From: an uncultured Candidatus Saccharibacteria bacterium
GTDB taxonomy: Bacteria; Patescibacteriota; Minisyncoccia; Phycocordibacterales; UBA2100
Direction: 5' to 3'
Assembly: GCA_964362175.1 (NCBI GenBank)
Contig: CAYIDD010000005.1
Span: forward strand, 44-64,043
DNA length: 64,000 bases
This document shows, in pieces, positions 1,860 to 41,288 of this stretch; within the stretch, counting starts at the first letter, position 1, and every line of letters starts with the position of its first letter. The notes beneath the pieces are model-generated. The model did no database searches and had not been told where the DNA came from. It was given only the letters and a program-made list of their open reading frames with translations. Position numbers and translations under genes: made by a program.

Positions 1860-2402
1860 ATGCAGGAAGGGATCCGAAAATTGCTGATACAACTCGGCGA
1901 AAACCCCGAACGAAATGGGCTCAGAGAAACCCCCCGCAGAGTCGAGGAGTCGTTGCAGTTCCTGACCCAGGGATACAGGACGAATATAGATGAGGTCATC
2001 GACGGGGCTATCTTTGAGGAGGATCATAACGAGATGGTGCTCGTGAAAGATATTGAAGTGTATAGTTTGTGCGAACATCACCTGCTTCCGTTCGTCGGTA
2101 AGGCGCATGTAGGGTACATCCCGAACGGCCGCGTTATCGGACTTTCAAAGATCGCTCGCGTCGTGGATATGTTCGCGCGGCGATTACAGTTGCAGGAGCG
2201 TCTTACGCGGGAGATCGCCGACGCTTTGGAGGAGAGCTTGAAACCAAGGGGGGTTGCGGTCATCATTGAGGCCGAGCATTTTTGCATGATGATGCGGGGT
2301 GTACAAAAACAAAATAGTAAGACGATAACATCAGCCATGCGCGGATCGTTTCTCAAAGACCAGAGATCGCGTGAAGAATTTTTGCATCTTGCAACTGCCT
2401 GA
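1860..2402 (+). CDS. folE: GTP cyclohydrolase I
   Basis: 180 aa. [10 protein letters not shown] and [19 protein letters not shown] motifs characteristic of FolE. Confidence 0.9.
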
Positions 2403-2428
2403 GGGATCGTTCGGGGATATTTCTTTTT

Positions 2429-2444
2429 GTGACCCTACCGGGAA
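2429..2444. repeat. 16-bp direct repeat (gtgaccctaccgggaa), identical to the 3' end of tRNA-Glu at 7688-7703; putative distal att site of integrated element 1
   Basis: Exact 16-mer match. Lies 27 bp downstream of the folE stop, at the transition into lower-GC DNA. Confidence 0.5.
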
Positions 2445-2987
2445 GCTTCGCGCATCGGTCACGGATAATTTTGCTCCGCAAAATTTCTGCGACCCCGACT
2501 CAGCGACCCTGAGGGTACCCCGCCTCCGTCTTTCGATTCCCGATCGGGACCCTGTAACACCTAAAAACCCGACGACATGCGTCGGGCCTTAAGGTGTTAT
2601 GAGGCCAGTGTACTTGGAATGGAACACCTTGGAAACTATGGTTATTCGATGGAAAGAGGTGTTCGCAACGATGCCCACTGGTTATCTTACCCCCTCCCTT
2701 GAGGCAGCGGTATGAGGACTTTAGGCCCAGGACTCCCGTTTAATATCTACCTTATAGGTAATAGAACGCAGAGATTACCCTCGATCCCGTCGCTAGGTAA
2801 ACTCGCAAAACTCGACTGTCAGAAAATGAAAAAACCCTACTAGGGAAACACTCCAGAAACTCAAGAGGACCCCATGGCGATTTTAGTCATATATAGAGGC
2901 ATAATTTATGCCATATGCAAAAAATAATCCCGAATAAACGGAGTGTTTTCCGAGTAAAAAACCCAGAGTTTTCTTACACAAAAACCC

Positions 2988-3665
2988 CTAGTTTTGCGAG
3001 TCATTTAGGAGCGTCATTTTGGGCACCTCTATGCCATTCCAAGCGATCCTCAGCGGCACCTCGGTAACCTGCCCGCTTTCCTGATAGAGCTTCACCAGGA
3101 GCACCGACTCGCCCAGTGCTCCTCTAGAAAAAGCAGGTACATCATTCCCCGCAGCGACCGCCAGCAAGACGGAGCGATCCCCGACCATTTCTCGGTCAAG
3201 CATGTGGTTGAAAATATCGAGATAAACAGTTTGGTTGGGATAAATGTCTCGAACAGTCAGACCGTCTTTATTCAGTTGTCCGTGCGTCCAGATAAGAGGC
3301 ATCGGAAAGAAATCGGTGCGTATTTCTCCGCTGTCGGTAATTTTCTCGATGTACGCCTCCACAGCTTTTGCCTTGAACTTACCGCTGTTCTTGATGATGA
3401 CTCTCCCAACATCGAGAAGCGCCATCGGCTCAGAGTCGCCAATCGCTTCGGCATCTCCTTGATTAGTCACTATTGCACCTTCGACCACGATCTTGCTTTT
3501 TTGTGGGCGACGCCTCCACCATTCACTTAGCGGCGGAGACAAAATACCAAGCACGAGAGCAAGAACGATTGCCCAAAATTCTGGAGTGAGATAGAAAGGC
3601 GTCGAGAAATGGGCGGCTGTCTTTTGGAGTGCATCTATCGCTGACTCAAGTTGGTTTGGCTGCAT
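2988..3665 (-). CDS. hypothetical protein with N-terminal transmembrane anchor (element 1)
   Basis: 225 aa ORF. TM segment EFWAIVLALVLGILSPPL. No recognisable catalytic motifs. Confidence 0.5.
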   Translation of the reverse strand: MQPNQLESAIDALQKTAAHFSTPFYLTPEFWAIVLALVLGILSPPLSEWWRRRPQKSKIVVEGAIVTNQGDAEAIGDSEPMALLDVGRVIIKNSGKFKAKAVEAYIEKITDSGEIRTDFFPMPLIWTHGQLNKDGLTVRDIYPNQTVYLDIFNHMLDREMVGDRSVLLAVAAGNDVPAFSRGALGESVLLVKLYQESGQVTEVPLRIAWNGIEVPKMTLLNDSQN

Positions 3666-3693
3666 GCAGTAATTCTACCGCAGCTGAGCAGAT

Positions 3694-3861
3694 TAGCTTT
3701 TGTGGTTAGAAGCCAAGTACGAATAAACAATTGGGGCCAAGATGGGAGCCACAAGGCCCGCGAAGAAAGCTACGACTCTGTTAGCTCCTATTTTCTTTGC
3801 AGAGTACAGGCAGATCGGTATGGATATTCCCCACAGTATCAGCAAGACAATCGTTTCCATA
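3694..3861 (-). CDS. small membrane protein (56 aa), hand-translated, not in ORF track (element 1)
   Basis: ATG at complement 3859-3861 gives METIVLLILWGISIPICLYSAKKIGANRVVAFFAGLVAPILAPIVYSYLASNHKS*. Two hydrophobic helices. Start lies 3 nt after the stop of the upstream gene, suggesting an operon. Confidence 0.35.
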
Positions 3862-3863
3862 TT

Positions 3864-4760
3864 TTATTGAGCAGTCACTGTCACACTCTTACTAAATCCG
3901 TTAGCAGAAAAAGTAATCGTGTGTTGGCCACTGGTTTTGAACTCGTACAGAAATGGGTAATATGACACCGTTTCAGGAACACCGTCCTTATAAATCTTTG
4001 TTACAGCGCCTATGCCCGTCTGGTCGGTTCCCGTTCCCTTTATGAACCTTCGGCAGCTGAAGCAGTCAGGATTAGGTGGATCGGTTGCCTCAATCGTTAC
4101 GTCATACTTAATAACGGCATCCCCGTTATCATTACGTGCAATAAGACCAAGAACAATAGAATTACTATCATCGGGAGTGGCACTGCCTTGGGCTAGTGTT
4201 CCGTCGGGATTTATTTGGTAGTTGTTTGCCTTGTATTGCCGCCCCAGACCCTTACCAGGAGTCGGGCTGAATATTTCAATATTCGCTTTCGATATAGGTA
4301 CGGGCGCAGGCGTCGGCTGTGGTGTTGTGGGAACTGTGGGTGTTGGTTGCGGTGCTGGATTAAGCACGGGCGCGGGAGTCGGTGCAGGATTGGCAGGTTG
4401 AGTTACCACTGGCGGAACTGTCGGCGGCGTAAGCTGTTCCTCCTTGACGGACTCCGCGAGATCCACCGAAAGTACGGCATTAGCTCGAGTGCGCGTCAGA
4501 GGTCCAAAGAAACCTGATACTGGAGTAATATTTTCTCGCGCTTGAAATACTTTTACCGCCTTCAGAGTGAGCGTATAAAAATTTCCTGTTATGGGTCCCG
4601 AATACACCCCTTGATCGGTTAGGAACTCTTGGAGCTCACGTACTTCATCGCCTTTGCTCCCGTACTTTAAATTAGTATCGAAAGAAGCAAAGACAAACTG
4701 CGGGACCAAAACCAGCACGATAGCGAGGAGTTTATAGATATTTTTCATAGCAACCAGCAT
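3864..4760 (-). CDS. secreted protein with peptidoglycan-binding-like domain and Pro/Thr-rich linker (element 1)
   Basis: 298 aa. Signal peptide MKNIYKLLAIVLVLVPQFVFA. YGSKGDEVRELQEFLTDQGVYSGPITGNFYTLTLKAVKVFQ resembles the PG_binding_1 fold. PAPTPAP linker, then a beta-rich C-terminal domain. Confidence 0.6.
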   Translation of the reverse strand: MLVAMKNIYKLLAIVLVLVPQFVFASFDTNLKYGSKGDEVRELQEFLTDQGVYSGPITGNFYTLTLKAVKVFQARENITPVSGFFGPLTRTRANAVLSVDLAESVKEEQLTPPTVPPVVTQPANPAPTPAPVLNPAPQPTPTVPTTPQPTPAPVPISKANIEIFSPTPGKGLGRQYKANNYQINPDGTLAQGSATPDDSNSIVLGLIARNDNGDAVIKYDVTIEATDPPNPDCFSCRRFIKGTGTDQTGIGAVTKIYKDGVPETVSYYPFLYEFKTSGQHTITFSANGFSKSVTVTAQ

Positions 4761-4778
4761 GAGCTTGTAATGCTGGCG

Positions 4779-4943
4779 CTAAACACTAAGCCCCGCGCCA
4801 GCTAGGCCTTGCGGCCCCACACCCGTTTCCAGGTATGGCCCATCGCTGAGTTGCTGAACACGGGGTTCAGTATCAGCGATGGGACTTGTCGACCTTGCCA
4901 CAGCGAAGCTGCGGGTTAGGCCCTTTTATTGGGTATGTGTAAC
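4779..4943. repeat. structured repeat element, copy A (homolog at 38208-38397)
   Basis: About 70% identical to copy B. Contains a perfect 11-bp stem (cccatcgctga 4850-4860 / tcagcgatggg 4884-4894). The sequence of this stem differs entirely from the 10-bp stem at the same position in copy B. Inner ctgaac/gttcag stem. Upstream ccccgcg is complementary to the loop. Confidence 0.6.
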
Positions 4944-4994
4944 TCGATGCTAACATAGCGAGCCGCGGGTATAAAGGATAAAATCAGCTCACGT

Positions 4995-5687
4995 ATGATC
5001 GACCAGCTACTAGCACAAAGAGCCGTTTTAGAGGCCCTTGAGGCCAAAATCACGGCCTTGGGCGGCGCTGACAGGCATGTTGGCGATACTACGCTCGAAC
5101 TGTACTTTTGGGACGATTTGGCGGAAAAACATCAAAAACTTTTTAGATCAGCCACACTCGAGGACATCGCCTCGGCAATTACTATCGTTGAGAAAGAGTC
5201 AGCGGGGCGCTTTAAACTTGTATCTATTAAGCCATCTACCGCCACTCGCGACGTATTGAGAGTCGGTATAATGCAAGAAAGTGGCAGACCTATTTTGGAC
5301 GTCTCGAATTTATATTGGGAAGTCCGATACACAGAAAAACTACCCGCGGGAGAAGCTCCCAGTGGTTCGCAAATCTTTTGGCTTACACCTAGGGAGCTAC
5401 ACTCGTTAATTTCAAATGAAAGGCGATCATTCGCGTTTCGGTCAGGCGGTGTTCAATTCCGATTATTGCAGTGGTTTTCCGAACACAAGGATTTAACTAA
5501 AAGCAAAGAGCTAGCGGAGGAGCTCAAGACCACAACACGAACAATTGCCACAGAGATCGGCAAGCTGAAACGTAAAGCTGACGAGGCATTTGGCCTCGAT
5601 GAGGATAATTTCGTCCAAAGCAGTTATGGCGAAGGTTACGGGCCTGGTATCGGAATAAAAATCAAATTGGAAAGAGGTACGTCGTAG
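4995..5687 (+). CDS. hypothetical protein, possible HTH DNA-binding regulator (element 1)
   Basis: 230 aa. C-terminal region SKELAEELKTTTRTIATEIGKLKRK looks helix-turn-helix-like. Upstream of the recombinase, divergent from the secreted-protein operon. Confidence 0.45.
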   Translation: MIDQLLAQRAVLEALEAKITALGGADRHVGDTTLELYFWDDLAEKHQKLFRSATLEDIASAITIVEKESAGRFKLVSIKPSTATRDVLRVGIMQESGRPILDVSNLYWEVRYTEKLPAGEAPSGSQIFWLTPRELHSLISNERRSFAFRSGGVQFRLLQWFSEHKDLTKSKELAEELKTTTRTIATEIGKLKRKADEAFGLDEDNFVQSSYGEGYGPGIGIKIKLERGTS

Positions 5688-5796
5688 CTACCGTTGATAA
5701 GACCATAGAGCGCGACTGAATTATTGGGCTCTTTTGAGGGCTTATCGTACATGCGCTGTATGTACGCTGTAGCACCCCTTTCGGCAGAATTATGAG

Positions 5797-5988
5797 GTGG
5801 AACAGAGCACCGATGACAAGCTGGCCGAGAGCGCAAGCTCAGAACTTTCTTTTGATGCCTTCAAAAAAGCGCTCGGGTCCGCTGCTCTAAAATACTCGGA
5901 TACGGAAATTGAGCGCATGCGGGCCGTCTGCGATAAGTTTGCGGATGCCTTCTTTGACGGTTGGCTTAAGCGACGAAACGAGCAATAA
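5797..5988 (+). CDS. small acidic hypothetical protein (63 aa) immediately upstream of recombinase 1
   Basis: ORF MEQSTDDKLAESASSEL...; helical and acidic. Position is consistent with a recombination accessory or directionality factor, but this is speculative. Confidence 0.3.
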   Translation: MEQSTDDKLAESASSELSFDAFKKALGSAALKYSDTEIERMRAVCDKFADAFFDGWLKRRNEQ

Positions 5989-6022
5989 TGGGCAGGAAGG
6001 GCTCGACGATTATTACAAAAAC

Positions 6023-7726
6023 ATGGAAAAAAGCACCGAGGGAGAGTATTGCATAATTCACTGTCGAGTGAGTTCAACCAAACAATCTCAGGAGGGTGAG
6101 AGCTTGGATGTGCAAGCGGGCATCTGCCGCGCCATTGCCGTTCAGAATAAATGGCCACTCGCTCATGAGCCGTGGGAAGAGAGCTTCTCAGGGCGTAAAA
6201 GTACTCGGCCAATCTTTGAAGAAGTGTTGGCATTTCTGGATGCACATCCAGGTAAAGTACGCCGCTACATTTTTCGCTCGATTGATCGCTTTACACGCGG
6301 CGGCTCATTCTCATACGAAACGATGAAGCGCGAGCTTACAAAGCGCGGGGTAGCGATGGTGGATAGCTATGGAGTAATTCAAGCTTCAAAAAACACTCTT
6401 GAGGATTTGGGGATTGAGTATGACTGGAGCAGGTACTCACCGAGTGAAATGACAGAGTCGCTTCTCGCGACGAATGCTAAACAGGAGGTTACTGGCATCC
6501 TTACCAGGATGATCGGGCAGTCAATCCGATTAACCAGGCAAGGGTATCGAGCGCGTCGAAGTACAGACGGGTTTAAGAATGAGCGGGTGTTCGTCGAGGG
6601 GAAAAAGAAGGTCATACAGGTTCCCGATAAGGAGCGGGCCCGCTTTTTTATTGCGATGTTTGAATTGCGAGCGCTGGGCCAACTTACAGACCCTGAGATA
6701 GTCGAGAGAGTGAATGCGATGGGATACCGTTCTCCGTATCAAAATAAGTACAATCACGAAAAGACCAAGATCGTCGGGCGGAGAGGCGGAGTTCCGCTGA
6801 CTGTAAAGCAACTCCAGCGCATCATGCGGAATACAATCTATGCTGGAGTCGCATGCGAAAAATGGACAAACTACAAACCAATCCATCAACAGTACGACGG
6901 TCTTGTTACGGTCGAGGTTTTCAATCGAGCCAATAGAGGAGAGTTCGCCATTATGACGGATGAGAGCGCAGAGCTCACAGTCGTTCGCGGCAAATCAAAG
7001 ACGGGCACGGAACGAGTAAGAAATAACCCGCTCTACCCCTTCAAGTTCATTCTGTGTCCTTTGTGCGAGAAACCCAAAACCATGCTTGGCAGCGCACCAC
7101 GCGGCAAGCTGGGTAAAACACATCCCACTTACCACTGCGCTCGTACACACAAGTATTTCGGTATTCCTAAAAAGGACTTTGAGGAGAGTGTGGCGAAGTA
7201 CATCAAGAGTTTGAAGTTCCAACCCGATTTGCTTAATGGCTTGGAGGCAACGTTCCTTAACAAGTATCGTAAACGTGAGAAAGAAATTGTCAGAGCATCA
7301 GGCCAAATACACTCGCACATAGGCGAGCTCGAGGCGCGTCAGGCCTCAAAACTTGAGGCGTTTGAAGCAACAAAGAGTCCCGTGCTCCGAGGAAAGCTGG
7401 AAAGAGAAATAGAAGATCTTGAGGTCCAGATCAAGCAGGCGGGTAAACAACGCCTGAAGATACAGATCACGCGAAATGATATTAAGGCCTTTATGCGAGA
7501 TGCGAAAGCGATAATGGAACACCCCGCTGAAATCCTCCTAAACCCAAAGGATATAAAGGTCCAACAGGAATTATTCGGGTTAGTTTTTGAGAAAATGCCG
7601 ACCTACTCGGAAATTGTTAATGGAACACCTAAATTGTCCTACGCCTTCGCGCTTTCTTCGACATTTACACCAGACAAAAACCAATTGGTGACCCTACCGG
7701 GAATCGAACCCGGATTAACGGCTTGA
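6023..7726 (+). CDS. large serine recombinase (resolvase N-terminal domain + recombinase domain + zinc ribbon + coiled coil)
   Basis: Start at MEKSTEGEYCIIHCRVSSTKQ, where the catalytic Ser lies in the RVSS context. Zinc ribbon CPLC...HCA. The last 38 nt read antisense through tRNA-Glu (tail VTLPGIEPGLTA). Confidence 0.85.
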   Translation: MEKSTEGEYCIIHCRVSSTKQSQEGESLDVQAGICRAIAVQNKWPLAHEPWEESFSGRKSTRPIFEEVLAFLDAHPGKVRRYIFRSIDRFTRGGSFSYETMKRELTKRGVAMVDSYGVIQASKNTLEDLGIEYDWSRYSPSEMTESLLATNAKQEVTGILTRMIGQSIRLTRQGYRARRSTDGFKNERVFVEGKKKVIQVPDKERARFFIAMFELRALGQLTDPEIVERVNAMGYRSPYQNKYNHEKTKIVGRRGGVPLTVKQLQRIMRNTIYAGVACEKWTNYKPIHQQYDGLVTVEVFNRANRGEFAIMTDESAELTVVRGKSKTGTERVRNNPLYPFKFILCPLCEKPKTMLGSAPRGKLGKTHPTYHCARTHKYFGIPKKDFEESVAKYIKSLKFQPDLLNGLEATFLNKYRKREKEIVRASGQIHSHIGELEARQASKLEAFEATKSPVLRGKLEREIEDLEVQIKQAGKQRLKIQITRNDIKAFMRDAKAIMEHPAEILLNPKDIKVQQELFGLVFEKMPTYSEIVNGTPKLSYAFALSSTFTPDKNQLVTLPGIEPGLTA

Positions 7727-7762
7727 AAAGCCGGCGTCCTAACCATTAGACGATAGGGCCAC
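7689..7762 (-). tRNA. tRNA-Glu (anticodon TTC)
   Basis: Hand-folded. Acceptor gtggccc/gggtcac. Anticodon loop ttTTCaa. T-arm ccggg-ttcgatt-cccgg. One c-t mismatch in the anticodon stem. Confidence 0.65.
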
Positions 7763-20766: not shown

Positions 20767-21420
20767 TCAATTACCTGCGGGAGTCGCAGTATCGGTGTAT
20801 CGAGAGCGGGACGGGAGAACATCAATGTCGTTGAACGGATACAGACGCAGGAGCACTTGTCCCACGATGTCTTCGCGCGGCAGCGTTCCCCAGATGCGGG
20901 AGTCCGAAGAGACACGGCGGTTGTCTCCGAGCACGAAATATCGATCCGGTTCGAGCGTGATCTTCATCTCGGTAATTCCTCCCATGTTTGTTTGCTCGAG
21001 ATATGGTTCCGAGATCACGAATCCTTCCGGATGCTCGGCGTTCTGTACCGTGACGGTGTTATCGGAAAGCACAATAGTTTCCCCCGGAAGTCCGATGACC
21101 CTCTTAATGAGTGCGCGCTTTGTGCCCGGTTGGTTAAAAATGACAACATCACCGCGTTCAGGCCCCCCAAAGTCGTATGAGACCCTGTCGACAATCAAGT
21201 ATTCCCAATCTTTGAAGTTTGGTTCCATAGATTGGCCCGAAACCACATACGGAGCGGCGATAAAGAAGCGAATGAAGAGTGCGAGACCGAGTGCCACCAC
21301 TGTGTAGCCCAAAAGAGATCCTTGCCCCCGTGCGTTGACAGACGGGTAGCCGTTGGGAATGGGTGAGGAATCGTTTTTCATATCCGGTGATGAATCATTT
21401 TGCATCACAGGATCAGGCAT
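20767..21420 (-). CDS. lepB: signal peptidase I
   Basis: SGQSMEPNF (Ser box), KRVIGLPGE (Lys box) and GDNRRVSSDSR motifs. Confidence 0.85.
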   Translation of the reverse strand: MPDPVMQNDSSPDMKNDSSPIPNGYPSVNARGQGSLLGYTVVALGLALFIRFFIAAPYVVSGQSMEPNFKDWEYLIVDRVSYDFGGPERGDVVIFNQPGTKRALIKRVIGLPGETIVLSDNTVTVQNAEHPEGFVISEPYLEQTNMGGITEMKITLEPDRYFVLGDNRRVSSDSRIWGTLPREDIVGQVLLRLYPFNDIDVLPSRSRYTDTATPAGN

Positions 21421-21439
21421 GTGCGATATTCTAACGCTC

Positions 21440-21574
21440 GCGTGGCATTGACACCAAGTGTTTGGGATGTTGCATGTAATTTTTTTGCAGATGAAAAAAT
21501 TTTATGACACATTTTTTATTTTTTTCGCACCAAGTACATATTCATTATAAAATACGCTATACTGTAGCTCTCAT
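21440..21574. promoter_or_regulatory. AT-rich divergent promoter region between lepB and pth
   Basis: ttgaca at 21448-21453. tatact at 21558-21563, 11 nt upstream of the pth ATG. Sharply lower GC than the flanks. Confidence 0.3.
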
Positions 21575-22165
21575 ATGGCGTGGATAATTATCGGCTTGGG
21601 GAATCCGGGGGAGGAATATGACGCAACACGACACAACACGGGACGTATGGCGCTCGAATATTTTGCAAAACAGCTGAAATTCGGTGAATGGAAGGAGGAT
21701 ACAAAGGCAAAAGCGCGTGTAGCAGCGGGAATGATAGGCAAAACAGCGGTTGCACTCGTTGCACCCGACACATTTATGAATAAATCCGGTACGGCGGTGG
21801 TAAAATTCGTTAAAAGCCAGAAAGCCGCAGAGCGCATGATCGTTCTCTACGACGACCTCGATCTTCCGCTCGGCTCCCTGAAACTCTCATTCAACAGGGG
21901 AAGCGGGGGACATCGGGGTGTGGAGTCGATCATGAAAGCAGTGAAAACGAAAAAGTTCACACGCGTACGCATCGGCGTATCTCCCGCCACTTCAGCGGGT
22001 ATCGTAAAGAAGCCTTCGGGGGAAAAAGAGGTCGTCAGTTTCATTCTTACAAAATTTAGATCAGCCGAACTCGCTGAGCTCAAGCCTGTGCTGAAGCGCG
22101 TTGCAGAGGCGCTGCAAATGATCGTCACTGATGGCCCCGAACGCGCGATGAATCAATTCAACTGA
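21575..22165 (+). CDS. pth: peptidyl-tRNA hydrolase
   Basis: IIGLGNPGEEYDATRHNTG N-terminal signature. Confidence 0.9.
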   Translation: MAWIIIGLGNPGEEYDATRHNTGRMALEYFAKQLKFGEWKEDTKAKARVAAGMIGKTAVALVAPDTFMNKSGTAVVKFVKSQKAAERMIVLYDDLDLPLGSLKLSFNRGSGGHRGVESIMKAVKTKKFTRVRIGVSPATSAGIVKKPSGEKEVVSFILTKFRSAELAELKPVLKRVAEALQMIVTDGPERAMNQFN

Positions 22166-22216
22166 CAACAGAGGACCCATTCGCGGTGTCTTTTCCACTC
22201 CGCTCGTATAATGCGA

Positions 22217-22254
22217 TGTTGTTTATTTTAAACTATAGCGTTTTGCAAACAACA
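22217..22254. promoter_or_regulatory. 38-bp imperfect palindrome (TGTTGTTT-N8-CTATAGC-N8-AAACAACA), upstream operator-like site for the PaaX-like regulator
   Basis: Inverted arms tgttgttt / aaacaaca around central ctatagc. Overlaps a tataat-like box at 22207-22212. 18 bp upstream of the regulator start. Second copy at 22864-22901. Confidence 0.4.
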
Positions 22255-22271
22255 CGATACGATAATTAGAT

Positions 22272-22862
22272 ATGGGACGAATGGAAACGGAGTCCAAAAA
22301 AAGAGCAAAACGCGTGAACATCGAAAACATTGTTCTCGGCACACTTTCTATCGTTGGCGTTGCAGCTCTCGCCATGGCTGCGCCGAATGCCCTCCAGCTT
22401 CTCAAGCACGTTGATCCCGACTGGGTAAGTAAACGAGATCCGAGACGTAGGTTGCGCGAGACAATATCCCGTATGAAGCGCAAAGGACTCGTCGAGTTCA
22501 AGATGCATAATGGCAGAAATCTTCCGCGCCTCACAAAGAAAGGGGAGGACGAGGCGCGTCGCGTCGCACTCGGAGAAACTATCATCAAAAAACCACTTCG
22601 CTGGGACCGGAAATGGCGCATCGTGATTTTTGACATCCCCGAGAAACGGAAGGGTTTGCGCGAACGCGTGCGCAAACTCGTTTCAAACATGGGATTCTTC
22701 CGGCTCCAAGATAGCGTGTGGGTTTTTCCCTATGATTGCGAAGAGATCGTGGCACTTTTGAAACTCGATTTGAAAATCGGACGTGAACTCATCTATATCA
22801 TTGCCGACGCGATCGAATTCGATACACCACTGCGTCAACACTTCAAACTACCTCTGGACTAA
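22272..22862 (+). CDS. PaaX-family-like transcriptional regulator (wHTH N-terminus + Cas2-like C-terminal domain)
   Basis: 196 aa. C-terminal WRIVIFDIPEKRKGLRERVRKLVSNMGFFRLQDSVWVF matches the Cas2/PaaX-C fold pattern. No CRISPR array nearby. Confidence 0.5.
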   Translation: MGRMETESKKRAKRVNIENIVLGTLSIVGVAALAMAAPNALQLLKHVDPDWVSKRDPRRRLRETISRMKRKGLVEFKMHNGRNLPRLTKKGEDEARRVALGETIIKKPLRWDRKWRIVIFDIPEKRKGLRERVRKLVSNMGFFRLQDSVWVFPYDCEEIVALLKLDLKIGRELIYIIADAIEFDTPLRQHFKLPLD

Positions 22863-22863
22863 A

Positions 22864-22901
22864 TGTTGTTTGTTTCAAGCTATAGCAATTTATAGACAAC
22901 A
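22864..22901. promoter_or_regulatory. second copy of the 38-bp palindrome, 2 bp downstream of the regulator stop
   Basis: tgttgtttgtttcaagctatagcaatttatagacaaca. Shares the tgttgttt...ctatagc...acaaca pattern with 22217-22254. Confidence 0.4.
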
Positions 22902-23193
22902 CTCTGTAATGGGCACAAAACGAAGGGGCCCTTTCCCAAGGGGCCCTGTTGGAGGAGTTTGGTTGCTCACAGCGAGCAACGGTGGCGTCAGCCAAGCTTA
23001 CGCCCGCCCGACGTGTTCGCGAGGGACTCTCGTCCCTGTGCGCCGCGTGCTCAGACGGCCGTGATGTTGTAGGCAGCCGCGATCGCGAACATCGACGACG
23101 ATGTCGTTCTCAAGGGAATACCCTCCTTCCGCGCCTTCGACCGGAAGCTTTCCGGTGGCGCTACCGCAATTGTACCTCGCTACAAATCGTTTA

Positions 23194-33750: not shown

Positions 33751-33963
33751 TGGTGTCGGGTATCGTATTCACGACGGACCTACTTTCGACACTTTCCGAG
33801 CGTGGGGCTTATCTTCGAGCTCAGTAAACAATTCGAGCTTGGAAACTATGATTTAGTCCGCCTAACTATAGACCATTGGAACGCGCTCATCCAAGAAATG
33901 GAACAATGGCGAGGCATTACTAACGGGACAGATTTTGCCTTATCTTCCGAATCTCGCGTTTAA
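33751..33963 (+). pseudogene. start-less fragment homologous to the 3' end of large serine recombinase 2 (C-terminal tail variant)
   Basis: Frame open from the stop at 33748-50, with no start codon. Translation ...VSYSRRTYFRHFPSVGLIFELSKQFELGNYDLVRLTIDHWNALIQEMEQWRGITNGTDFALSSESRV*. Recombinase 2 has ...IAYSRGMGFGIARMGLIFELSKQFELGNYALVRPVGFEPTTVRLRGDCSTN*. Confidence 0.45.
33804..33862. repeat. 59-bp direct repeat (55/59 identical to 40959-41017), left boundary of integrated element 2
   Basis: ggggcttatCttcgagctcagtaaacaattcgagcttggaaaCtatgAtttAgtccgcc versus attR ggggcttatAttcgagctcagtaaacaattcgagcttggaaaTtatgCtttGgtccgcc. 32-bp identical core. The last ~9 nt correspond to the tRNA-Lys 3' end. 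Confidence 0.6.
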
Positions 33964-36448
33964 ACGACTCAGGCAGTTCTATAACTGATAGGTCTACAGT
34001 TGAGAGCCATTGAGTCGCTTGCTCCTCGTTAAGAGAAGGATTGCCAACCATCTTAGACAGTTCTGTGGCTACATGTCTGCTGAAGCCCATATTGATAAAT
34101 GAGACTTGCGTCATTTCTGATACTCCGAACTCAACCCACGTTCTAATATCTGGTATTTGTGCTAACAGTTCAGTTCTACCTGTTTGCTCGAAGAAATATC
34201 GGAGGGTATCTAAATAACACGTGATGTATTTCGCGAATCCAAAACGAATATCGTCTTCTATATTACGCATGGTATCTCGGATAACTACAGGAAGACGAGG
34301 GCTTCTGCCATGCTCCTGTAAATACTTGAAGTAATCCACGATTATCCTTGGCAAGGGGTAGCCGCGCATCCAAACAACCGCTAGCAACGCCTCTCGATAT
34401 GAGCTTATACTTTTTGTGTTTGGAGGTGCGAGATGTGTATTAACTCGACTGACAATTCGGTTGTAATCGCTCACTGCCGTTTGAGCGGCGACAGAAGGCG
34501 GCGGCAACAATTCTTCTACGTTCTCGTGTCCTTGGAAGTAATCATAAAGTCGTTTTACAGCAAGAGGACTAATGCCTGGATTTCGTTGAAAGATTTCCCG
34601 TGGCAACTGGACGTTTTCCCTGATTTTCCCTAACAGACTGATAAGTTCGTCCGAGAATATGCTGCTGTAATCGCCATCTAAGTATTTAAGAAAAAAGTAG
34701 CTCAACGCGTACTCCATATTCGCATCTCGAATATTGGCATCTTCGGCATGCTCGGCGACAAATTCAAGGAATGATGACCCCTCTCCAGTGATTTCAACAA
34801 GTGATTTCTTTATCTCATAACGACGTTCGCCCCAGAGAGGCTTATGCGTCCATTCTTCAGGTTCTATACAGAAAATATTTCCTTGAAAATCTTTGGAGAG
34901 TCTGCCTGCTCGTCCCGCCAAGTTCCAAAAATCCGCTTCTGACATCGGATTGCCACGACCACGAGATGGATTGGTAATGAAAATCGCTTTTGCCGACAGA
35001 TTCACTCCCTCTAGTAAAGTTGATGTGCAGACTAAATATTTAATAGCTCCCTCTCGGAACAATCTTTCAATTTCACGTCTAACCAAAAGCGGCATATTTC
35101 CGTAATGAAAAGCGACACCATAGGGCAATACTTGCGGTAGTGCATAGTGCGGATGAATAAGTCTTTTTGAGAGGTCTATCAACTCATCGAATGACGACTC
35201 ATCCTTTTCAACACCCATTTGTCTCAATTCATCTGCAATGCTTTGTGCGATTCTCTCAGCACTAGCTGCTCCAGATGCATATACCAAATTTCCACCGTCC
35301 TTACTCAGTAAGATTGGTAGCTTGCTACATTTCTTAGCAATTGTACCAAGAGTTTGTTCAAGTACGATTTTTCCTAAAGGAATAGATTGGGTCTTTAAGC
35401 AAAGCGTAATGTCCCATTCTTTGGGTTTACGAGGTACTTTAGAGAGCCAAATGAGGTTTTGGTTTACCGCCACATAATCCGTTAGAATGCTTACGCCCGT
35501 ATCTGAGTTCGATATTCCTAAAAGTATCTCAGGATTTCGGGAGAATGCGCTACAGAAGAGCACTCGCGAGGACGGATTAATACGCTGAACCTGCTCCACT
35601 TTCTCCTGCAGTAAAATACCACGTTGACCATCTCCTATCTTTTGTGCCTCATCAACAATTAGCAGGTCGACGGAATAGTCTGGATTATCCGTGAGAAACC
35701 AATGCAGTCTCTCCTGCGTGAAGACAAAGAGGTGATTTGAGTTCTTGTATTGGACTGGGGGCAATTTCGGGACTGAGCTTATGTAGACATTCTTTTCTAG
35801 ACCATATTCTGTGAGACTTTCATTGAAGCGGTCTTCCACTTCGTTAATAAGAGCACGAGTTGGGACGATATATACGATATGTGATGTTCTATCTGATTCT
35901 GACAAGGCTTTTGCGACAATGAGACTAAGCACGAACGACTTTCCAGCCGATGTCGGCGCGGAAGCACTTACTGTATTCTGCTCTCGTGCGGCAATATAAA
36001 GTTGTCTCTGAAATTTATTCAAATACCTAGTGTCGTTAACAATCTCAACTGTATGCAGTTGGTCGCGCCACATTTTCTCGACGAGAAGAGGACGCGGAAT
36101 GTCCTCCTCATAATTTTCGGGAATGTATTCTTTTTCTATAGCAAGATTAATCGCGGGCGCATTTGTCAGTTTCCCAAAAATAATCGCTGCTGCAACGTGA
36201 TATGACGGGTCAACCGCAGTCGTGAGACAGTATTGTGCGATGCGTAATGCCGCATCCTGACACTCCGCATCGTTTGCTTGCGCTAAAATGCTTCCGCAGA
36301 GAAGCATGTAGTTCCAGTCAATGTTCGGCTGCTGGTGGTCGTCAGAAAATCTTGTTGGCAAACTACCGAGAACGGAGGCATGGAGTATACTGCTAAATTC
36401 GTTTCTGAATTCTTGCAGTCCAAGTATTTTGCGTGCCAATTTGTCCAT
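33920..36448 (-). CDS. superfamily 2 DExH-box helicase (Ski2-like; HamB-like candidate)
   Basis: 842 aa. Motif I APTSAGKS, Ia IVPTRAL, II LLIVDEAQ, VI NLAGRAGR. Characteristic YGVAFHYGNMP...LVCTSTLLEGVNLSA RecA2 region. Confidence 0.8.
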   Translation of the reverse strand: MDKLARKILGLQEFRNEFSSILHASVLGSLPTRFSDDHQQPNIDWNYMLLCGSILAQANDAECQDAALRIAQYCLTTAVDPSYHVAAAIIFGKLTNAPAINLAIEKEYIPENYEEDIPRPLLVEKMWRDQLHTVEIVNDTRYLNKFQRQLYIAAREQNTVSASAPTSAGKSFVLSLIVAKALSESDRTSHIVYIVPTRALINEVEDRFNESLTEYGLEKNVYISSVPKLPPVQYKNSNHLFVFTQERLHWFLTDNPDYSVDLLIVDEAQKIGDGQRGILLQEKVEQVQRINPSSRVLFCSAFSRNPEILLGISNSDTGVSILTDYVAVNQNLIWLSKVPRKPKEWDITLCLKTQSIPLGKIVLEQTLGTIAKKCSKLPILLSKDGGNLVYASGAASAERIAQSIADELRQMGVEKDESSFDELIDLSKRLIHPHYALPQVLPYGVAFHYGNMPLLVRREIERLFREGAIKYLVCTSTLLEGVNLSAKAIFITNPSRGRGNPMSEADFWNLAGRAGRLSKDFQGNIFCIEPEEWTHKPLWGERRYEIKKSLVEITGEGSSFLEFVAEHAEDANIRDANMEYALSYFFLKYLDGDYSSIFSDELISLLGKIRENVQLPREIFQRNPGISPLAVKRLYDYFQGHENVEELLPPPSVAAQTAVSDYNRIVSRVNTHLAPPNTKSISSYREALLAVVWMRGYPLPRIIVDYFKYLQEHGRSPRLPVVIRDTMRNIEDDIRFGFAKYITCYLDTLRYFFEQTGRTELLAQIPDIRTWVEFGVSEMTQVSFINMGFSRHVATELSKMVGNPSLNEEQATQWLSTVDLSVIELPESFKREIRKIRQNLSR

Positions 36449-36457
36449 AAGGCATAC

Positions 36458-37423
36458 TCAACGCTCTAAGGCGCGAGTTAAGGCTTCGCGAAATTTTGCT
36501 ACCGAAGGCAGAGGAAGGATAAATAAGTGTATAACTATGGTCTCAACTTTTTGACTCTTTATTTCGGCATGGATTTTTTCAATCCATACGCTTAGGCTTT
36601 CGACTATGGCCTTTTTAACAGCTTCTACGTTGCCCGTATTTTGGACGGATGGGTAATGTTCGAAATCAAAACCAACGAGCCCAATTCCACGATAATTCAC
36701 TCGATTCGCTAAAGGTGAATCTTTTTTAAGATAACGTATCAGTGCCGACTCCAAATTCTCATCAGCAATATTTTCTGCGAGGTGGTCATGTGCCAACTGC
36801 AAATCTCTTTCTCGGCGTTCTGCGCCACCATCTACAAGAAGATAGGCGGATAAATCTTTAATGCACTCTTTAATGGCTGTTGCGGGATTTTGCTGGAGTT
36901 TTGACTCACACCAATACAGACATAAAATTGGTTCTTTACCCTCGTCATTCTCAATGGACAAGTGAATACCGTCAGAGCCGTGCACGGGCATTTCTGAGTT
37001 TGTCTTGAGAGGCATTTTGCACAGCAGTTGAGGGTACTTGAGGAATTCCTGAGCCATAAGATACAGGAGCAATTCACCACCCTCGCCAGATATACCCGTG
37101 GACTTAAATAACCCCCGTGCTGTCTTTTGTAATGCTGCAACTTTTCGGGTGGTGTTGTGCTTTGTATCGTAAGCTTTTGCTTCTGCGATTTTTGAGCGAG
37201 GAATTGCAAAATCAGCAGCGTTTGTAGCTAGGAAATCTGCCAAATCGTCAATCGGGGGCATGCCGTTCCCGTCCAATTCCAAAACGTAGCAGTGCGATGT
37301 TGCCCTTGTCGCCCCGACAACAACATTTACTTCTATTTCGGAGAAATATCGAGATAATTCAGCCTCACTGGTACTAAGTAAGCCACCCACTTCTCCTTTG
37401 AGGTCGTTGGATGACTTATTCAT
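36458..37423 (-). CDS. hypothetical protein with PD-(D/E)xK-like motif (HamA/DUF1837-like candidate)
   Basis: 321 aa, 9 bp upstream of the helicase. ...VHGSDGIHLSIENDEGKEPILCLYWCESKL... fits D...ExK nuclease spacing. GELLLYLMAQEFL segment. Size and gene order match Hachiman hamA-hamB. Confidence 0.4.
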   Translation of the reverse strand: MNKSSNDLKGEVGGLLSTSEAELSRYFSEIEVNVVVGATRATSHCYVLELDGNGMPPIDDLADFLATNAADFAIPRSKIAEAKAYDTKHNTTRKVAALQKTARGLFKSTGISGEGGELLLYLMAQEFLKYPQLLCKMPLKTNSEMPVHGSDGIHLSIENDEGKEPILCLYWCESKLQQNPATAIKECIKDLSAYLLVDGGAERRERDLQLAHDHLAENIADENLESALIRYLKKDSPLANRVNYRGIGLVGFDFEHYPSVQNTGNVEAVKKAIVESLSVWIEKIHAEIKSQKVETIVIHLFILPLPSVAKFREALTRALER

Positions 37424-38207: not shown

Positions 38208-38397
38208 TAATGCTAGCGGGAGTGCAACACTAAACCCCGCGCCAGCTAAGCCTTGCGGCCCCACACCCCTTTCGGGATATGGCTCATGGAAGAGTCGCTG
38301 AACGCGGGGTTCAGTACCTTCCATGAGTCTTTTCGACCATGCCACCAGACGTTGGTGGGTTAGGTCGCGCCCTTACGGGCTGATATTGGGTGTGTAA
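38208..38397. repeat. structured repeat element, copy B (homolog of 4779-4943)
   Basis: Perfect 10-bp stem ctcatggaag (38283-38292) / cttccatgag (38318-38327) encloses ...gctgaacgcggggttcag.... Upstream aaccccgcg is complementary to cgcggggtt. Shares aacactaa(a/g)ccccgcgccagcta, gccttgcggccccacaccc and tattgggtRtgtgtaa blocks with copy A. Confidence 0.6.
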
Positions 38398-38595
38398 AAG
38401 CACTATATCATCACACGGAAAAACACACAGAAAACAGGTGCGTGCAAGGAGGTTTAGGATTATCCAAATGCTTGGATAGAGCCATATAAGGCGTCTGTAG
38501 GTCAAAAAAGGAGGTAGGAGGGGTACGGGGACCAAAACCCTGATTAAAACTACATACCACCGTCCCTCGACAAATTTTATATATATTTTTGTAGG

Positions 38596-41084: not shown

Positions 41085-41122
41085 TTACGTGGGATTCTAC
41101 AGGAAATAATGCTTTTTTGAAG

Positions 41123-41140
41123 TGCCGGGGGTGGGACTCG
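41123..41140. repeat. 18-nt duplicate of the 3' end of tRNA-Leu(TAA) (identical to 41289-41306)
   Basis: tgccgggggtgggactcg, exact. Separated from the tRNA by a 148-bp insert with hairpins aattcaatcg...cgattgaatt and gcatcgtgc...gcacgatgc. Confidence 0.5.
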
Positions 41141-41288
41141 GTCACAAATAATTCAATCGCCGCCGCGATTGAATTTCCGCGACCCCGGCTCGCGGTCGCG
41201 CGTACTCGCGCGACATCGCTCCGCCTTTCGAGTCCCACACGCATCGTGCGTAGGCACGATGCTCCCCGTCAATCTCACTTCGCTCGCT

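What the first reader, a model, noticed from the sequence alone, without database searches (positions are those of the whole stretch)
2429..7703. Integrated element 1 (~5.3 kb) at tRNA-Glu, related to element 2
A 16-bp exact repeat of the tRNA-Glu 3' end (gtgaccctaccgggaa) at 2429 and 7688 brackets a lower-GC segment inserted right after the folE stop. The segment encodes a homologous large serine recombinase reading into tRNA-Glu. It also carries a small acidic ORF and a 230-aa putative DNA-binding protein upstream, a secreted peptidoglycan-binding-domain protein, a 56-aa membrane protein and a hypothetical protein in one minus-strand operon, and structured repeat copy A. A second start-less reading frame spans the left repeat (...FVTLPGSFAHRSRIILLRKISATPTQRP*), analogous to element 2. 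A 16-mer alone could recur by chance in 64 kb (expected about 0.5 chance pairs overall). However, its position exactly at the tRNA 3' end next to a recombinase makes coincidence unlikely.
Basis: partly seen in the sequence, partly recalled or inferred. Interest (0 to 1): 0.6.

Follow-up and report, generated by a model that had tools for sequence, protein, structure and literature searches.

The report
Serine-recombinase element inserted at tRNA-Glu
A 5.1-kb mobile element sits at the end of a tRNA-Glu gene in a groundwater Parcubacteria genome; its crossover site lies inside its own serine recombinase gene, so inserting swaps the enzyme's conserved tail for a few tRNA-derived residues, and it carries the orphan LOOT RNA.

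Summary
The 16-bp repeat, the GC dip (0.485 against 0.553±0.013), the large serine recombinase reading into tRNA-Glu and the cargo ORFs are all there. A syntenic relative (L048) has folE followed after 203 bp by tRNA-Glu, with no element.

The interpretation needs correcting. The 16-mer is not this recombinase's crossover site. About 27 integrated relatives, an un-split attP form (L013) and a 4,975-bp circular relative (L062) place the core at TGA. That gives attL at 2600-2602, attR at 7689-7691 and an element of 5,089 bp (2603-7691).

attP lies inside the recombinase ORF. Integration replaces a conserved C-terminal tail (RPVYLEWNTLETMVIRWKEVF…, now stranded at 2602-2715) with 11 tRNA-antisense residues. 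Excision would restore it in frame.

The 16-mer begins a separate, host-GC unit of about 170 bp (2429-2599). It carries a direct and an inverted tRNA-Glu 3' fragment and recurs in L016 and L042. Its origin is unexplained.

The "structured repeat" is LOOT RNA (RF03000). It lies 40-66 nt upstream of a cargo ORF in most of the copies checked.

I rate it a new variant of a known kind. Whether the tail swap does anything is untested.

The parts
1860..2402 (+). folE (GTP cyclohydrolase I), the left host flank
   Evidence: PF01227 at 6.7e-79. Syntenic with L048.
2429..2444 (.). Left copy of the 16-bp repeat. It is a tRNA-Glu 3' fragment (positions 59-74) with a native-type trailer that lacks CCA. It is the first part of 'unit Z'.
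2429..2599 (.). Unit Z, about 170 bp with host-like GC (0.553 for 2403-2599). In order it holds the direct tRNA-Glu 3' fragment, about 90 nt, a diverged inverted copy (2532-2552), and a long hairpin (2554-2599) that reads as an intrinsic terminator on the minus strand. Its origin is unexplained.
   Evidence: Folding z-scores are -4.2 and -4.5. Homologous units occur in L016 and twice in L042 (nhmmer E from 1e-26 to 1e-35 on its own training set). The layout is shown.
2600..2602 (.). attL core TGA, the inferred crossover region
   Evidence: Collinear with the L013 attP: 21 nt from xTG to the TGG of the tail. It is the only shared core that restores the reading frame.
2602..2715 (+). Displaced 3' end of the recombinase gene (P' arm plus tail): RPVYLEWNTLETMVIRWKEVFATMPTGYLTPSLEAAV*
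   Evidence: The motif W-N-T-[IL]-E-x2-[VI]-x2-W occurs in 51 displaced and 31 un-split copies, with synonymous codon variation.
2988..3665 (-). 225-aa cargo ORF with no family match
   Evidence: Not shared with related elements.
3693..3860 (-). 55-aa hydrophobic ORF (cargo)
   Evidence: It is called as a gene on contigs L002 and L008.
3864..4760 (-). 298-aa protein with a signal-peptide-like N-terminus and a PG_binding_1 domain (cargo)
   Evidence: PF01471 at 1.6e-10. Only the endolysin binding domain matches in PHROGs.
4804..4922 (-). LOOT RNA (RF03000), 43 nt upstream of the PG_binding ORF and 72 nt from the divergent HTH gene
   Evidence: 77.4 bits against a gathering score of 46.4. Paired changes relative to the element-2 copy are visible in the alignment. 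Position rule.
4995..5687 (+). 230-aa protein with a C-terminal helix-turn-helix, a candidate regulator
   Evidence: HTH_11 at 2e-5, 24.8 bits, just below the 25-bit threshold. Conserved at the same position in 7 close relatives.
5797..5988 (+). 63-aa acidic protein, a conserved partner of the recombinase and a candidate directionality or regulatory factor
   Evidence: tblastn hits in 71 related loci, just upstream of the recombinase in those inspected. Also present on the circular L062. No family match.
5945..7726 (+). Large serine recombinase in its integrated, tail-swapped form. The longest ORF starts at 5909, the called gene at 5945, and the likely true start is the ATG at 6023. It ends ...NQLV|TLPGIEPGLTA*, with the stop inside tRNA-Glu.
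   Evidence: An AlphaFold2 model of homolog P0003 matches Bxb1 9iu2_A at E=9.7e-12.
7689..7691 (.). attR core TGA, which is tRNA positions 71-73. The element supplies the encoded CCA at 7686-7688.
   Evidence: Only the two element-occupied tRNAs of the nine in the window have a CCA encoded right after the discriminator.
7686..7760 (-). tRNA-Glu(ttc), the intact target gene
   Evidence: ARAGORN. Rfam tRNA at 65.3 bits.

Best explanation
What it is. Window 2603-7691 is a 5,089-bp integrative element of a Parcubacteria (Kaiserbacteria-like) groundwater bacterium. It was inserted by its own large serine recombinase at the extreme 3' end of tRNA-Glu(ttc), at tRNA positions 71-73, with core TGA.

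What is shown by sequence comparison:
- The recombination site of the free element (attP) lies inside the recombinase ORF, just after the conserved codons ...NQLV.
- In the circular or un-split form the gene encodes a conserved C-terminal tail of about 37 aa, predicted helical, with the motif WNT(I/L)E..(V/I)..W.
- Integration splits the gene. The chromosomal copy ends after 11 residues read from the antisense strand of the tRNA (TLPGIEPGLTA*). The tail coding sequence is stranded 5 kb away at attL (2602-2715).
- The element also supplies the tRNA's encoded CCA.
- Joining attL and attR at TGA restores the full ORF in frame.

What is inferred:
- The two isoforms differ in activity or stability, so the element's integration state feeds back on its recombinase. 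One possibility is that the full-length form integrates while the truncated form is quiescent or competent only for excision. The conserved 63-aa acidic protein encoded just upstream could act as the partner.
- LOOT RNA and the HTH gene are transcribed divergently from a 72-nt region. LOOT acts as a 5' leader of the leftward cargo operon.

The 16-bp repeat. It belongs to a separate unit of about 170 bp (2429-2599) that lay between folE and the tRNA before this element arrived. The most likely origin is a scar or a miniature element from an earlier integration that crossed over in the T-loop.
For: Recombinase identity:
- Resolvase and Recombinase domains and phrog_95 integrase.
- The N-terminal domain matches TP901-1 integrase.
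- An AlphaFold2 model of the un-split homolog P0003 (pLDDT 81.8) has the catalytic domain, long helix, recombinase domain, zinc ribbon and two long coiled-coil helices. It matches full-length Bxb1 (9iu2_A) at E=9.7e-12.

Two classes of C-terminus diverge right after NQLV:
- 72 tRNA-antisense tails against 41 WN tails among the top 120 homologs.
- 45 against 24 among metagenome loci. The targets are tRNA-Glu, Lys, Trp and Arg.

Displaced tail:
- It lies 3.4-10.5 kb upstream on the same strand in integrated relatives.
- Joining at the longest shared core gave an in-frame ORF in 24 of 28 pairs. A few of those automatic cores look spurious. The window needs TGA.

att sequences are.

Free and empty forms:
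- L062 is a 4,975-bp circle (43-bp terminal overlap) with an un-split recombinase and the acidic ORF.
- The empty site in syntenic L048 is shown.

Other support:
- GC is 5 sd below the host.
- Only tRNA-Glu and tRNA-Lys have a CCA encoded right after the discriminator.
- Tail amino acids are conserved with synonymous variation in 51 displaced copies.
- The acidic ORF is conserved in 71 loci.
- LOOT lies inside elements and 40-66 nt upstream of an ORF in 12 of 18 copies checked.
Against: - No excised circle or empty site was found for this particular element. All four contigs with the identical folE carry it, so it may be fixed in this population.
- The core is only 3 nt and rests on homology, not on a same-species empty allele. 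L048 is a different species, about 72% nt identity in the flanks, with a diverged tRNA-Glu.
- No experiment shows that the tail matters. TGGAAC (W-N) is invariant at the DNA level: N is always AAC. Part of the conservation could therefore reflect a DNA-binding half-site rather than the protein.
- Un-split copies also occur on large chromosomal contigs of non-CPR bacteria, and in L003 and L014. An un-split gene therefore does not always mean a free circle.
- The origin of unit Z is unresolved.
- The Pfam Recombinase hit in the window protein is below threshold (19.0 against 21.1 bits).
Confidence: 0.8

Rival explanations
1. One reading: the element is 2429/2445-7703 (about 5.27 kb) and the 16-bp repeat is the att core produced by this recombinase.
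For: The direct repeat is exact and non-random, and it lies at the tRNA 3' end. Blocks of identity running from the crossover to the tRNA end are typical of tRNA islands (own knowledge). Even the larger interval has low GC, 0.489.
Against: Relatives cross over at GTGA/TGA, directly abutting the tail. The window has that same junction at 2600, preceded by a terminator-like hairpin as in L016, L018, L022, L027 and L044. With the 16-mer as core the excised gene would end ...VTLPGSFAHRS...*, with no conserved motif. The interval 2403-2599 has host GC. L042 and L016 have homologous units outside their attL.
Confidence: 0.08
2. It is a fixed, decaying island. The split recombinase is simply inactivated, as in a 'suicidal' integration, and the element no longer moves. 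The tail swap has no regulatory role.
For: Every contig of this population carries the element. No attP form of this exact element was found. The closest homolog is only 70-72% identical.
Against: All ORFs are intact. The displaced tail is intact, in frame, and under protein-level constraint across 51 displaced copies. A circular relative exists. Both forms are abundant in metagenomes.
Confidence: 0.2
3. It is a prophage or phage satellite.
For: The recombinase matches a phage integrase family (phrog_95). The PG_binding domain resembles the binding domains of endolysins.
Against: It is 5.1 kb with no capsid, terminase, portal or replication genes. Only one relative was found among 2.9 million IMG/VR contigs. 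Cargo varies between elements.
Confidence: 0.05
4. Unit Z (2429-2599) is not a scar. It is a functional part of the system, for example a non-autonomous mini-element or a tRNA-minihelix-like RNA that the recombinase recognises or moves.
For: The layout is shared in the window and the inner L042 unit: direct fragment about 190 nt from the tail's W codon, inverted fragment 79-88 nt from it, hairpin, then core. The L016 unit aligns with them, and L042 has two units in tandem. Host flanks are unrelated. Folding z-scores are about -4.3. L048 has a similar duplication of about 170 bp after tRNA-Ser.
Against: Only 3-4 of 42 elements have it. It is absent from the circular and un-split forms. It lies on the host side of attL and has host GC.
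Confidence: 0.15

Closest known systems
Large serine recombinases / serine integrases (Bxb1, phiC31, TP901-1, A118)
   Same: N-terminal resolvase-type catalytic domain with the RVSS serine. Recombinase domain, Cys/His zinc ribbon and long coiled-coil helices. A whole-length fold match to Bxb1. A very short shared core between otherwise different attP and attB.
   Different: There are about 90 extra C-terminal residues after the coiled coil, ending in the conserved WN tail. attP lies inside the recombinase ORF. The target is the last bases of a tRNA gene. From my own knowledge, serine integrases usually target protein-coding or intergenic sites, and I did not find this arrangement described in the papers searched.
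Archaeal 'suicidal' (SSV-type) tyrosine integrases; also Myxococcus phage Mx8 intP/intX (from memory)
   Same: The att site lies within the integrase gene, the target is a tRNA gene, and integration partitions or alters the integrase. The review PMC8371274 describes this as a built-in control of directionality.
   Different: Those are tyrosine recombinases, and PMC8371274 calls the suicidal type exclusive to archaea. Here the enzyme is a bacterial serine recombinase. Only the last 37 or so residues are exchanged, so the catalytic and DNA-binding domains stay intact.
Integration-dependent immunity of mycobacteriophages (BPs, Cluster P, MabB/MabN)
   Same: The attP core lies inside a coding sequence. 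Integration removes a C-terminal segment and changes the protein's properties, and the 3' remnant is left at the other end of the prophage (PMC9934374, PMC4557955).
   Different: There the split gene is the repressor and the lost piece is an ssrA-like degradation tag. Here it is the recombinase itself. Only some homologs end in -AA, and the window's tail ends ...EAAV.
tRNA-integrated genomic islands (Islander/TIGER type)
   Same: Insertion at a tRNA 3' end that restores the gene, an integrase next to the tRNA, variable cargo that includes defence genes (Hachiman in element 2), and empty sites in relatives.
   Different: Most such islands use tyrosine integrases, which cross over in the anticodon or T loop and leave long identity blocks (own knowledge). 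Here the shared core is 3-4 bp at tRNA positions 71-74.
LOOT RNA (Rfam RF03000)
   Same: Both window copies match the full model at 77-78 bits.
   Different: Rfam types it as an sRNA gene, and the Rfam 14 paper describes it as metagenome-based (PMC7779021). Here every copy found lies in a locus carrying one of these recombinases. It lies 40-66 nt upstream of an ORF in 12 of 18 copies checked, often one with a signal-peptide-like start. That looks more like a 5' leader.

Membership tests
Large serine recombinase (serine integrase) | N-terminal resolvase-type catalytic domain with the nucleophilic serine | tested here: met
   PF00239 at 5.5e-12, residues 49-152, motif RVSS. The family profile hits the TP901-1 integrase catalytic domain at 1.5e-8.
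Large serine recombinase (serine integrase) | Recombinase domain (PF07508) after the long alpha-E helix | tested here: inconclusive
   19.0 bits against a threshold of 21.1 in the window protein. PF07508 is on record for many homologs. The model of P0003 aligns with Bxb1 over 509 columns.
Large serine recombinase (serine integrase) | Zinc-ribbon domain with an embedded coiled coil | tested here: met
   C344, C347, Y367-H368-C369 and H373 are invariant across 68 sequences. The model shows strands followed by two long helices, 398-446 and 450-472. This is predicted, not solved.
Large serine recombinase (serine integrase) | attP and attB are different sequences that share only a short central core | tested here: met
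   The shared core is TGA/GTGA for Glu targets and GTCCGCC for Lys targets. The arms are unrelated. The crossover dinucleotide itself is inferred.
Large serine recombinase (serine integrase) | Catalyses unidirectional attP x attB integration, with excision needing a directionality factor | not testable with these tools
   Needs biochemistry. The candidate factor is the 63-aa acidic protein.
tRNA-targeting integrative element / genomic island | Inserted at a tRNA gene that stays intact, with the integrase adjacent | tested here: met
tRNA-targeting integrative element / genomic island | Empty site in relatives | tested here: met
   L048 has folE, 203 bp, then tRNA-Glu and tRNA-Ser, with syntenic flanks. 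It is a related species, not the same one.
tRNA-targeting integrative element / genomic island | A free circular form exists | tested here: inconclusive
   A 4,975-bp circular contig of a homologous element exists (L062). None was found for this exact element.
'Suicidal' split integrases (SSV type) | The att site lies inside the integrase ORF, so integration splits the gene | tested here: met
'Suicidal' split integrases (SSV type) | Tyrosine recombinase of archaeal elements | tested here: not met
   The enzyme is a serine recombinase in bacteria. It works in a similar way but is not a member.
Integration-dependent immunity | attP lies inside the repressor gene, and integration removes an ssrA-like tag | tested here: not met
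   The split gene is the recombinase. The HTH gene at 4995-5687 is intact. Endings in -AA occur only in some homologs.
LOOT RNA (RF03000) | Scores above the Rfam gathering threshold across the full model | tested here: met
   77.4 and 78.2 bits against 46.4, model positions 1-121.
Prophage | Virion structural and packaging genes | tested here: not met
   No such hits in Pfam or PHROGs. The element is only 5.1 kb.

The most novel reading that the evidence does not exclude
The tail swap is a built-in state sensor for a serine integrase. The full-length enzyme, made only from the free circle, integrates. The tRNA-tailed enzyme, made only from the chromosome, has a different directionality or stability, perhaps acting with the conserved 63-aa protein. 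The element would then control direction without a classical separately regulated directionality factor. LOOT RNA would be the cis-acting leader that couples cargo expression to this switch. This would be the first bacterial, serine-recombinase counterpart of the archaeal 'suicidal' integrases. It would also provide a set of compact recombinases that target tRNA genes.
Probability: 0.25. Interest if true: 0.8.

Novelty: new variant of a known kind. Interest (0 to 1): 0.6.

Why it matters
Serine integrases are widely used tools for genome engineering, and how they choose direction is a central question. This family has 376 clusters at 50% identity with E≤1e-30 and is found mostly in Patescibacteria. 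It combines three features I did not find described together: the crossover lies inside the recombinase ORF, a conserved tail is reversibly exchanged, and the target is the last bases of a tRNA gene with a shared core of only 3-4 bp.

It also gives a genomic home and a testable role to LOOT RNA, which was known only from metagenomes. And it shows that these small elements carry defence systems (Hachiman in element 2) and genes for apparently secreted or membrane proteins in ultrasmall bacteria, where gene transfer is poorly understood.

If the tail swap turns out to be neutral, the finding reduces to a well-delimited member of a new integrative-element family.

Tried and rejected
- Same-population empty site. 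Look-ups by the exact folE and cation-efflux proteins returned only contigs that carry the element.
- Homology of the intergenic regions. Window 2403-2600 against the L048 spacer scored 91, against 82±8.6 for shuffles, so they are not related and this cannot decide whether unit Z is host DNA.
- GGTG at 2593 as the core. It is the longest shared word, but it gives ...NQLVL*, so I rejected it in favour of TGA at 2600 (collinearity).
- My first reading of a 5-nt insertion or frameshift at attL was wrong. It disappears with the TGA core.
- Circularity of L013. No terminal overlap was found.
- Prophage reading. Rejected.
- Homology between the HTH proteins of the two elements. None found.
- Promoter and terminator scan. 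Uninformative, with fewer promoter-like sites than in shuffles.
- Replication gene on the circular L062. None recognised in Pfam.
- Weinberg 2017 supplement for LOOT's original description. Not held.
- Literature searches for a serine integrase with attP inside its own gene, or for tRNA-targeting serine integrases in Patescibacteria. Nothing specific turned up.
- nhmmer search for more Z units. Only the training loci scored strongly. There were weak hits at window 41093-41236, L028 670-756 and L044.
- Low-GC stretch at 21-23 kb. It holds ordinary host genes.

Full report
**1. Checking the observation**

The 16-mer GTGACCCTACCGGGAA occurs exactly twice in the window, at 2429-2444 and 7688-7703. 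With up to two mismatches allowed, 0.03 matches are expected by chance. The right copy is the 3' part of tRNA-Glu(ttc), which lies at 7686-7760 on the minus strand.

- folE at 1860-2402.
- A large serine recombinase at 5909-7726 (+), whose stop codon lies inside the tRNA. It matches Resolvase at 5.5e-12, Recombinase weakly, and phrog_95 integrase at 8.9e-32.
- A 230-aa protein with a helix-turn-helix match just below Pfam's threshold.
- A 63-aa acidic ORF.
- A minus-strand operon encoding a 298-aa PG_binding_1 protein, a 55-aa hydrophobic protein and a 225-aa protein.

GC is 0.485 for the element. All 154 windows of 5,089 bp elsewhere in the window average 0.553±0.013, with a minimum of 0.523. 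The "structured repeat" is LOOT RNA (RF03000) at 4804-4922 (-). A second copy lies in element 2 at 38248-38366. The alignment of the two copies shows paired changes in the stems.

**2. Host, and the empty site**

The recombinase and its flanking genes occur on contigs from Hainich groundwater well H43, 0.1-µm fraction. The closest named FolE is from Candidatus Kaiserbacteria. Every contig with the identical folE carries the element.

A related genome, L048 (GCA_039732165.1, FolE 84% identical), is syntenic on both sides (blastn). It has folE, then 203 bp, then tRNA-Glu(ttc) and tRNA-Ser(cga), with no element.

**3. The recombinase family and its two kinds of C-terminus**

Homologs are abundant, mostly in Parcubacteria and other Patescibacteria. 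There are 376 clusters at 50% identity with E≤1e-30.

In alignments the proteins are collinear up to a conserved ...NQLV and then fall into two classes.
- Class A ends within 10-25 residues in sequences such as LPGIEPGLTA or RGIEPRFTP. These are the antisense reading of a tRNA T-arm.
- Class B continues with a conserved tail, xPxYLxWNT(I/L)ExxVxxWKxVF...

Among the top 120 homologs, 72 are class A and 41 class B. Among metagenome loci the split is 45 to 24. Class A genes end inside tRNA-Glu (ttc or ctc), tRNA-Lys, tRNA-Trp or tRNA-Arg genes on the opposite strand.

**4. The missing tail sits at the other end of each integrated element**

A six-frame search finds the tail motif 3.4-10.5 kb upstream of integrated recombinase genes, on the same strand. 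It is in the window's element 1 (W codon at 2620) and in element 2 (33877).

The junction sequences are consistent:
- attR is ...TTGGTGA|CCC...(tRNA).
- attL is (terminator-like hairpin)...TTTGTGA|GCCCAGTGTACC...TGGAAC.
- The un-split gene in L013 reads TTGGTGA|GCCCAGTGTACCTTGATTGGAAC.
- Elements that target tRNA-Lys, including element 2, share GTCCGCC instead.

Joining the attR and attL halves at the longest shared word gave an in-frame ORF in 24 of 28 pairs. A few of those automatically chosen words look spurious.

L062 is a 5,018-bp contig with a 43-bp terminal overlap, which makes it a 4,975-bp circle. It carries an un-split recombinase and the small acidic ORF. This is direct evidence for a free circular form with attP inside the gene.

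**5. Boundaries of element 1**

In the window the family-type junction reads ccttaaggtgtta-TGA-GGCCAGTGTACTTGGAATGGAAC, with TGA at 2600-2602. From xTG to the TGG codon is 21 nt, exactly as in L013. A long hairpin that reads as a minus-strand terminator (2554-2599) precedes it, as in L016, L018, L022, L027 and L044.

With attR TGA at 7689-7691, the element is 2603-7691, or 5,089 bp. This is close in size to the L062 circle.

The restored ORF reads ...NQLV-RPVYLEWNTLETMVIRWKEVFATMPTGYLTPSLEAAV*. The integrated gene reads ...NQLV-TLPGIEPGLTA*.

TGA corresponds to tRNA positions 71-73, so the element supplies only the CCA and what follows it. In agreement, only tRNA-Glu and tRNA-Lys, the two tRNAs with elements, have a CCA encoded directly after the discriminator; the other seven tRNA genes in the window do not.

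**6. What the 16-mer is**

The 16-mer lies 155 bp outside this attL. It starts a unit of about 170 bp (2429-2599). The interval from the folE stop to the core (2403-2599) has host-like GC, 0.553.

The unit consists of, in order:
- the direct tRNA-Glu 3' fragment, with a native-type trailer that lacks CCA;
- about 90 nt;
- a diverged inverted copy of the fragment (2532-2552);
- the hairpin.

It folds better than shuffled sequence on both strands, with z about -4.3.

Homologous units lie at the same place, just outside attL, in L016 and twice in tandem in L042. L042's host flanks are unrelated to the window's. L048 has a comparable duplication of about 170 bp of the tRNA-Ser 3' end.

The simplest reading is that an earlier integration crossed over in the T-loop and left this as a scar or a miniature element. 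The recombinase element then inserted at the new tRNA 3' end. I could not establish this, and the inverted copy remains unexplained.

**7. Is the tail functional?**

An AlphaFold2 model of the un-split homolog P0003 (pLDDT 81.8) shows the architecture of a serine integrase. Full-length Bxb1 is the only strong PDB match (9iu2_A, E=9.7e-12). The tail forms a helix at residues 562-577, after about 90 extra C-terminal residues.

Across 51 displaced and 31 un-split tails the two tryptophans are fixed (the search pattern itself requires them). Several other positions, including T, E, F and aliphatic residues, favour one amino acid or class while using several synonymous codons. This indicates selection on the protein even when the piece is separated from its gene.

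TGGAAC is also invariant as DNA, so a contribution from a recognition site in the P' arm is possible.

That the two isoforms differ in function is an inference. I put it at roughly 40%.

**8. Other parts of the element**

The 63-aa acidic ORF has tblastn hits in 71 related loci, just upstream of the recombinase in those inspected. It appears to be a core partner. The 230-aa HTH protein is shared only with seven close relatives. The cargo is not shared, apart from one weak partial hit for the PG_binding protein in L003.

LOOT was found in 18 copies by Rfam and in 22 further loci by my own model. Every copy lies in a locus that carries one of these recombinases, and inside the mapped element wherever attL could be located. 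In 12 of the 18 copies examined an ORF on the same strand starts 40-66 nt downstream, often one with a signal-peptide-like start. A conserved box, GGCGGGYTTTNTGT, directly follows most copies. This fits a 5' leader better than a free sRNA.

Element 2 carries a complete Hachiman system, HamA and HamB.

**9. Comparison with known systems**

The enzyme meets the tested criteria for a large serine recombinase.

An att site inside the integrase gene is known for archaeal "suicidal" tyrosine integrases, which a review describes as exclusive to archaea (PMC8371274). From memory, it is also known for Myxococcus phage Mx8. A split coding sequence used as a state sensor is known from integration-dependent immunity in mycobacteriophages, where the split gene is the repressor (PMC9934374).

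I found no description of a serine integrase with this arrangement or of this family. LOOT is described only as a metagenome-based RNA (PMC7779021).

**10. Verdict**

It is wrong about the boundary and about which start-less frame matters.

I rate it a new variant of a known kind, with interest 0.6. The structural facts are well supported by comparison. The regulatory meaning of the tail swap, the role of LOOT and the nature of unit Z remain open.

Noticed in passing
window 4804-4922 (-) and 38248-38366 (-); 16 further copies in L003-L043 and 22 further loci in L056-L134: LOOT RNA (RF03000) is known only from metagenomes. Here every copy found lies in a locus carrying one of these tRNA-targeting serine recombinases. 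In 12 of 18 copies checked it lies 40-66 nt upstream of an ORF on the same strand, often one with a signal-peptide-like start. A conserved box, GGCGGGYTTTNTGT, directly follows most copies. This looks like a 5' leader rather than a trans-acting sRNA.
   Followed up: partly
window 2429-2599; L016 4727-4923; L042 5488-5696 and 5698-5871; compare L048 7040-7231: A recurring unit of about 170 bp lies next to tRNA 3' ends. It holds a direct and an inverted copy of the tRNA's last 16-20 nt plus a hairpin. It occurs in tandem in L042, and a similar duplication follows tRNA-Ser in L048. It could be a scar, a miniature integrative element or a tRNA-minihelix-like RNA.
   Followed up: partly
window 33803-33862 and 40958-41017: The left flank of element 2 repeats 60 bp at 93% identity. 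The repeat covers the last 51 bp of the recombinase coding region plus 9 nt of tRNA-Lys, which is far more than the 7-bp core GTCCGCC seen in its relatives L026 and L027. This suggests a remnant of an earlier related element, or an exchange by homologous recombination.
   Followed up: no
window 33920-37423 (-): Element 2 carries a complete Hachiman defence system: HamA (DUF1837, 3.2e-102) and the HamB helicase (3.4e-262).
   Followed up: yes
window, all nine tRNA genes: Only tRNA-Glu and tRNA-Lys, the two with elements at their 3' ends, have a CCA encoded directly after the discriminator. The recombinase's conserved L-V codons (TTG GTG) are the antisense of that CCA plus the base that follows it.
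   Followed up: yes
window 4780-4960 against 38224-38404: The LOOT regions of elements 1 and 2 are about 82% identical in DNA, while their recombinases are only 23% identical in protein. This suggests that the two co-resident elements have exchanged the LOOT module.
   Followed up: no
L003 11687 and 1726; L014 11738 and 13724; L029, L030, L037, L045, L112, L123: Un-split recombinase genes also occur on large chromosomal contigs, including those of Alphaproteobacteria, Verrucomicrobia and a Sphingobium isolate, with no tRNA next to them. Some loci have a second, orphan tail fragment. How these copies are integrated was not worked out.
   Followed up: no
window 7619-7630, 7513-7524 and 2618-2629: AATGGAACACCT occurs in the recombinase gene, where it encodes NGTPK about 70 nt before the core, and again in the displaced tail, where it encodes EWNTL 21 nt after the core. 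TGGAAC is invariant at the DNA level in all 82 tails. It may be a recognition motif.
   Followed up: partly
L014 12381-17808: The locus of one relative carries CBASS-like genes (CD-NTase C-terminal domain and patatin), a DpnII/MboI-like gene and DACNG/DACNH domain genes next to the recombinase. This is further defence cargo.
   Followed up: no
window 21000-23000: A second GC dip (0.487-0.489) holds ordinary host genes, judged from the translations alone without a family search: signal peptidase-like and peptidyl-tRNA hydrolase-like ORFs. It is not an element.
   Followed up: yes
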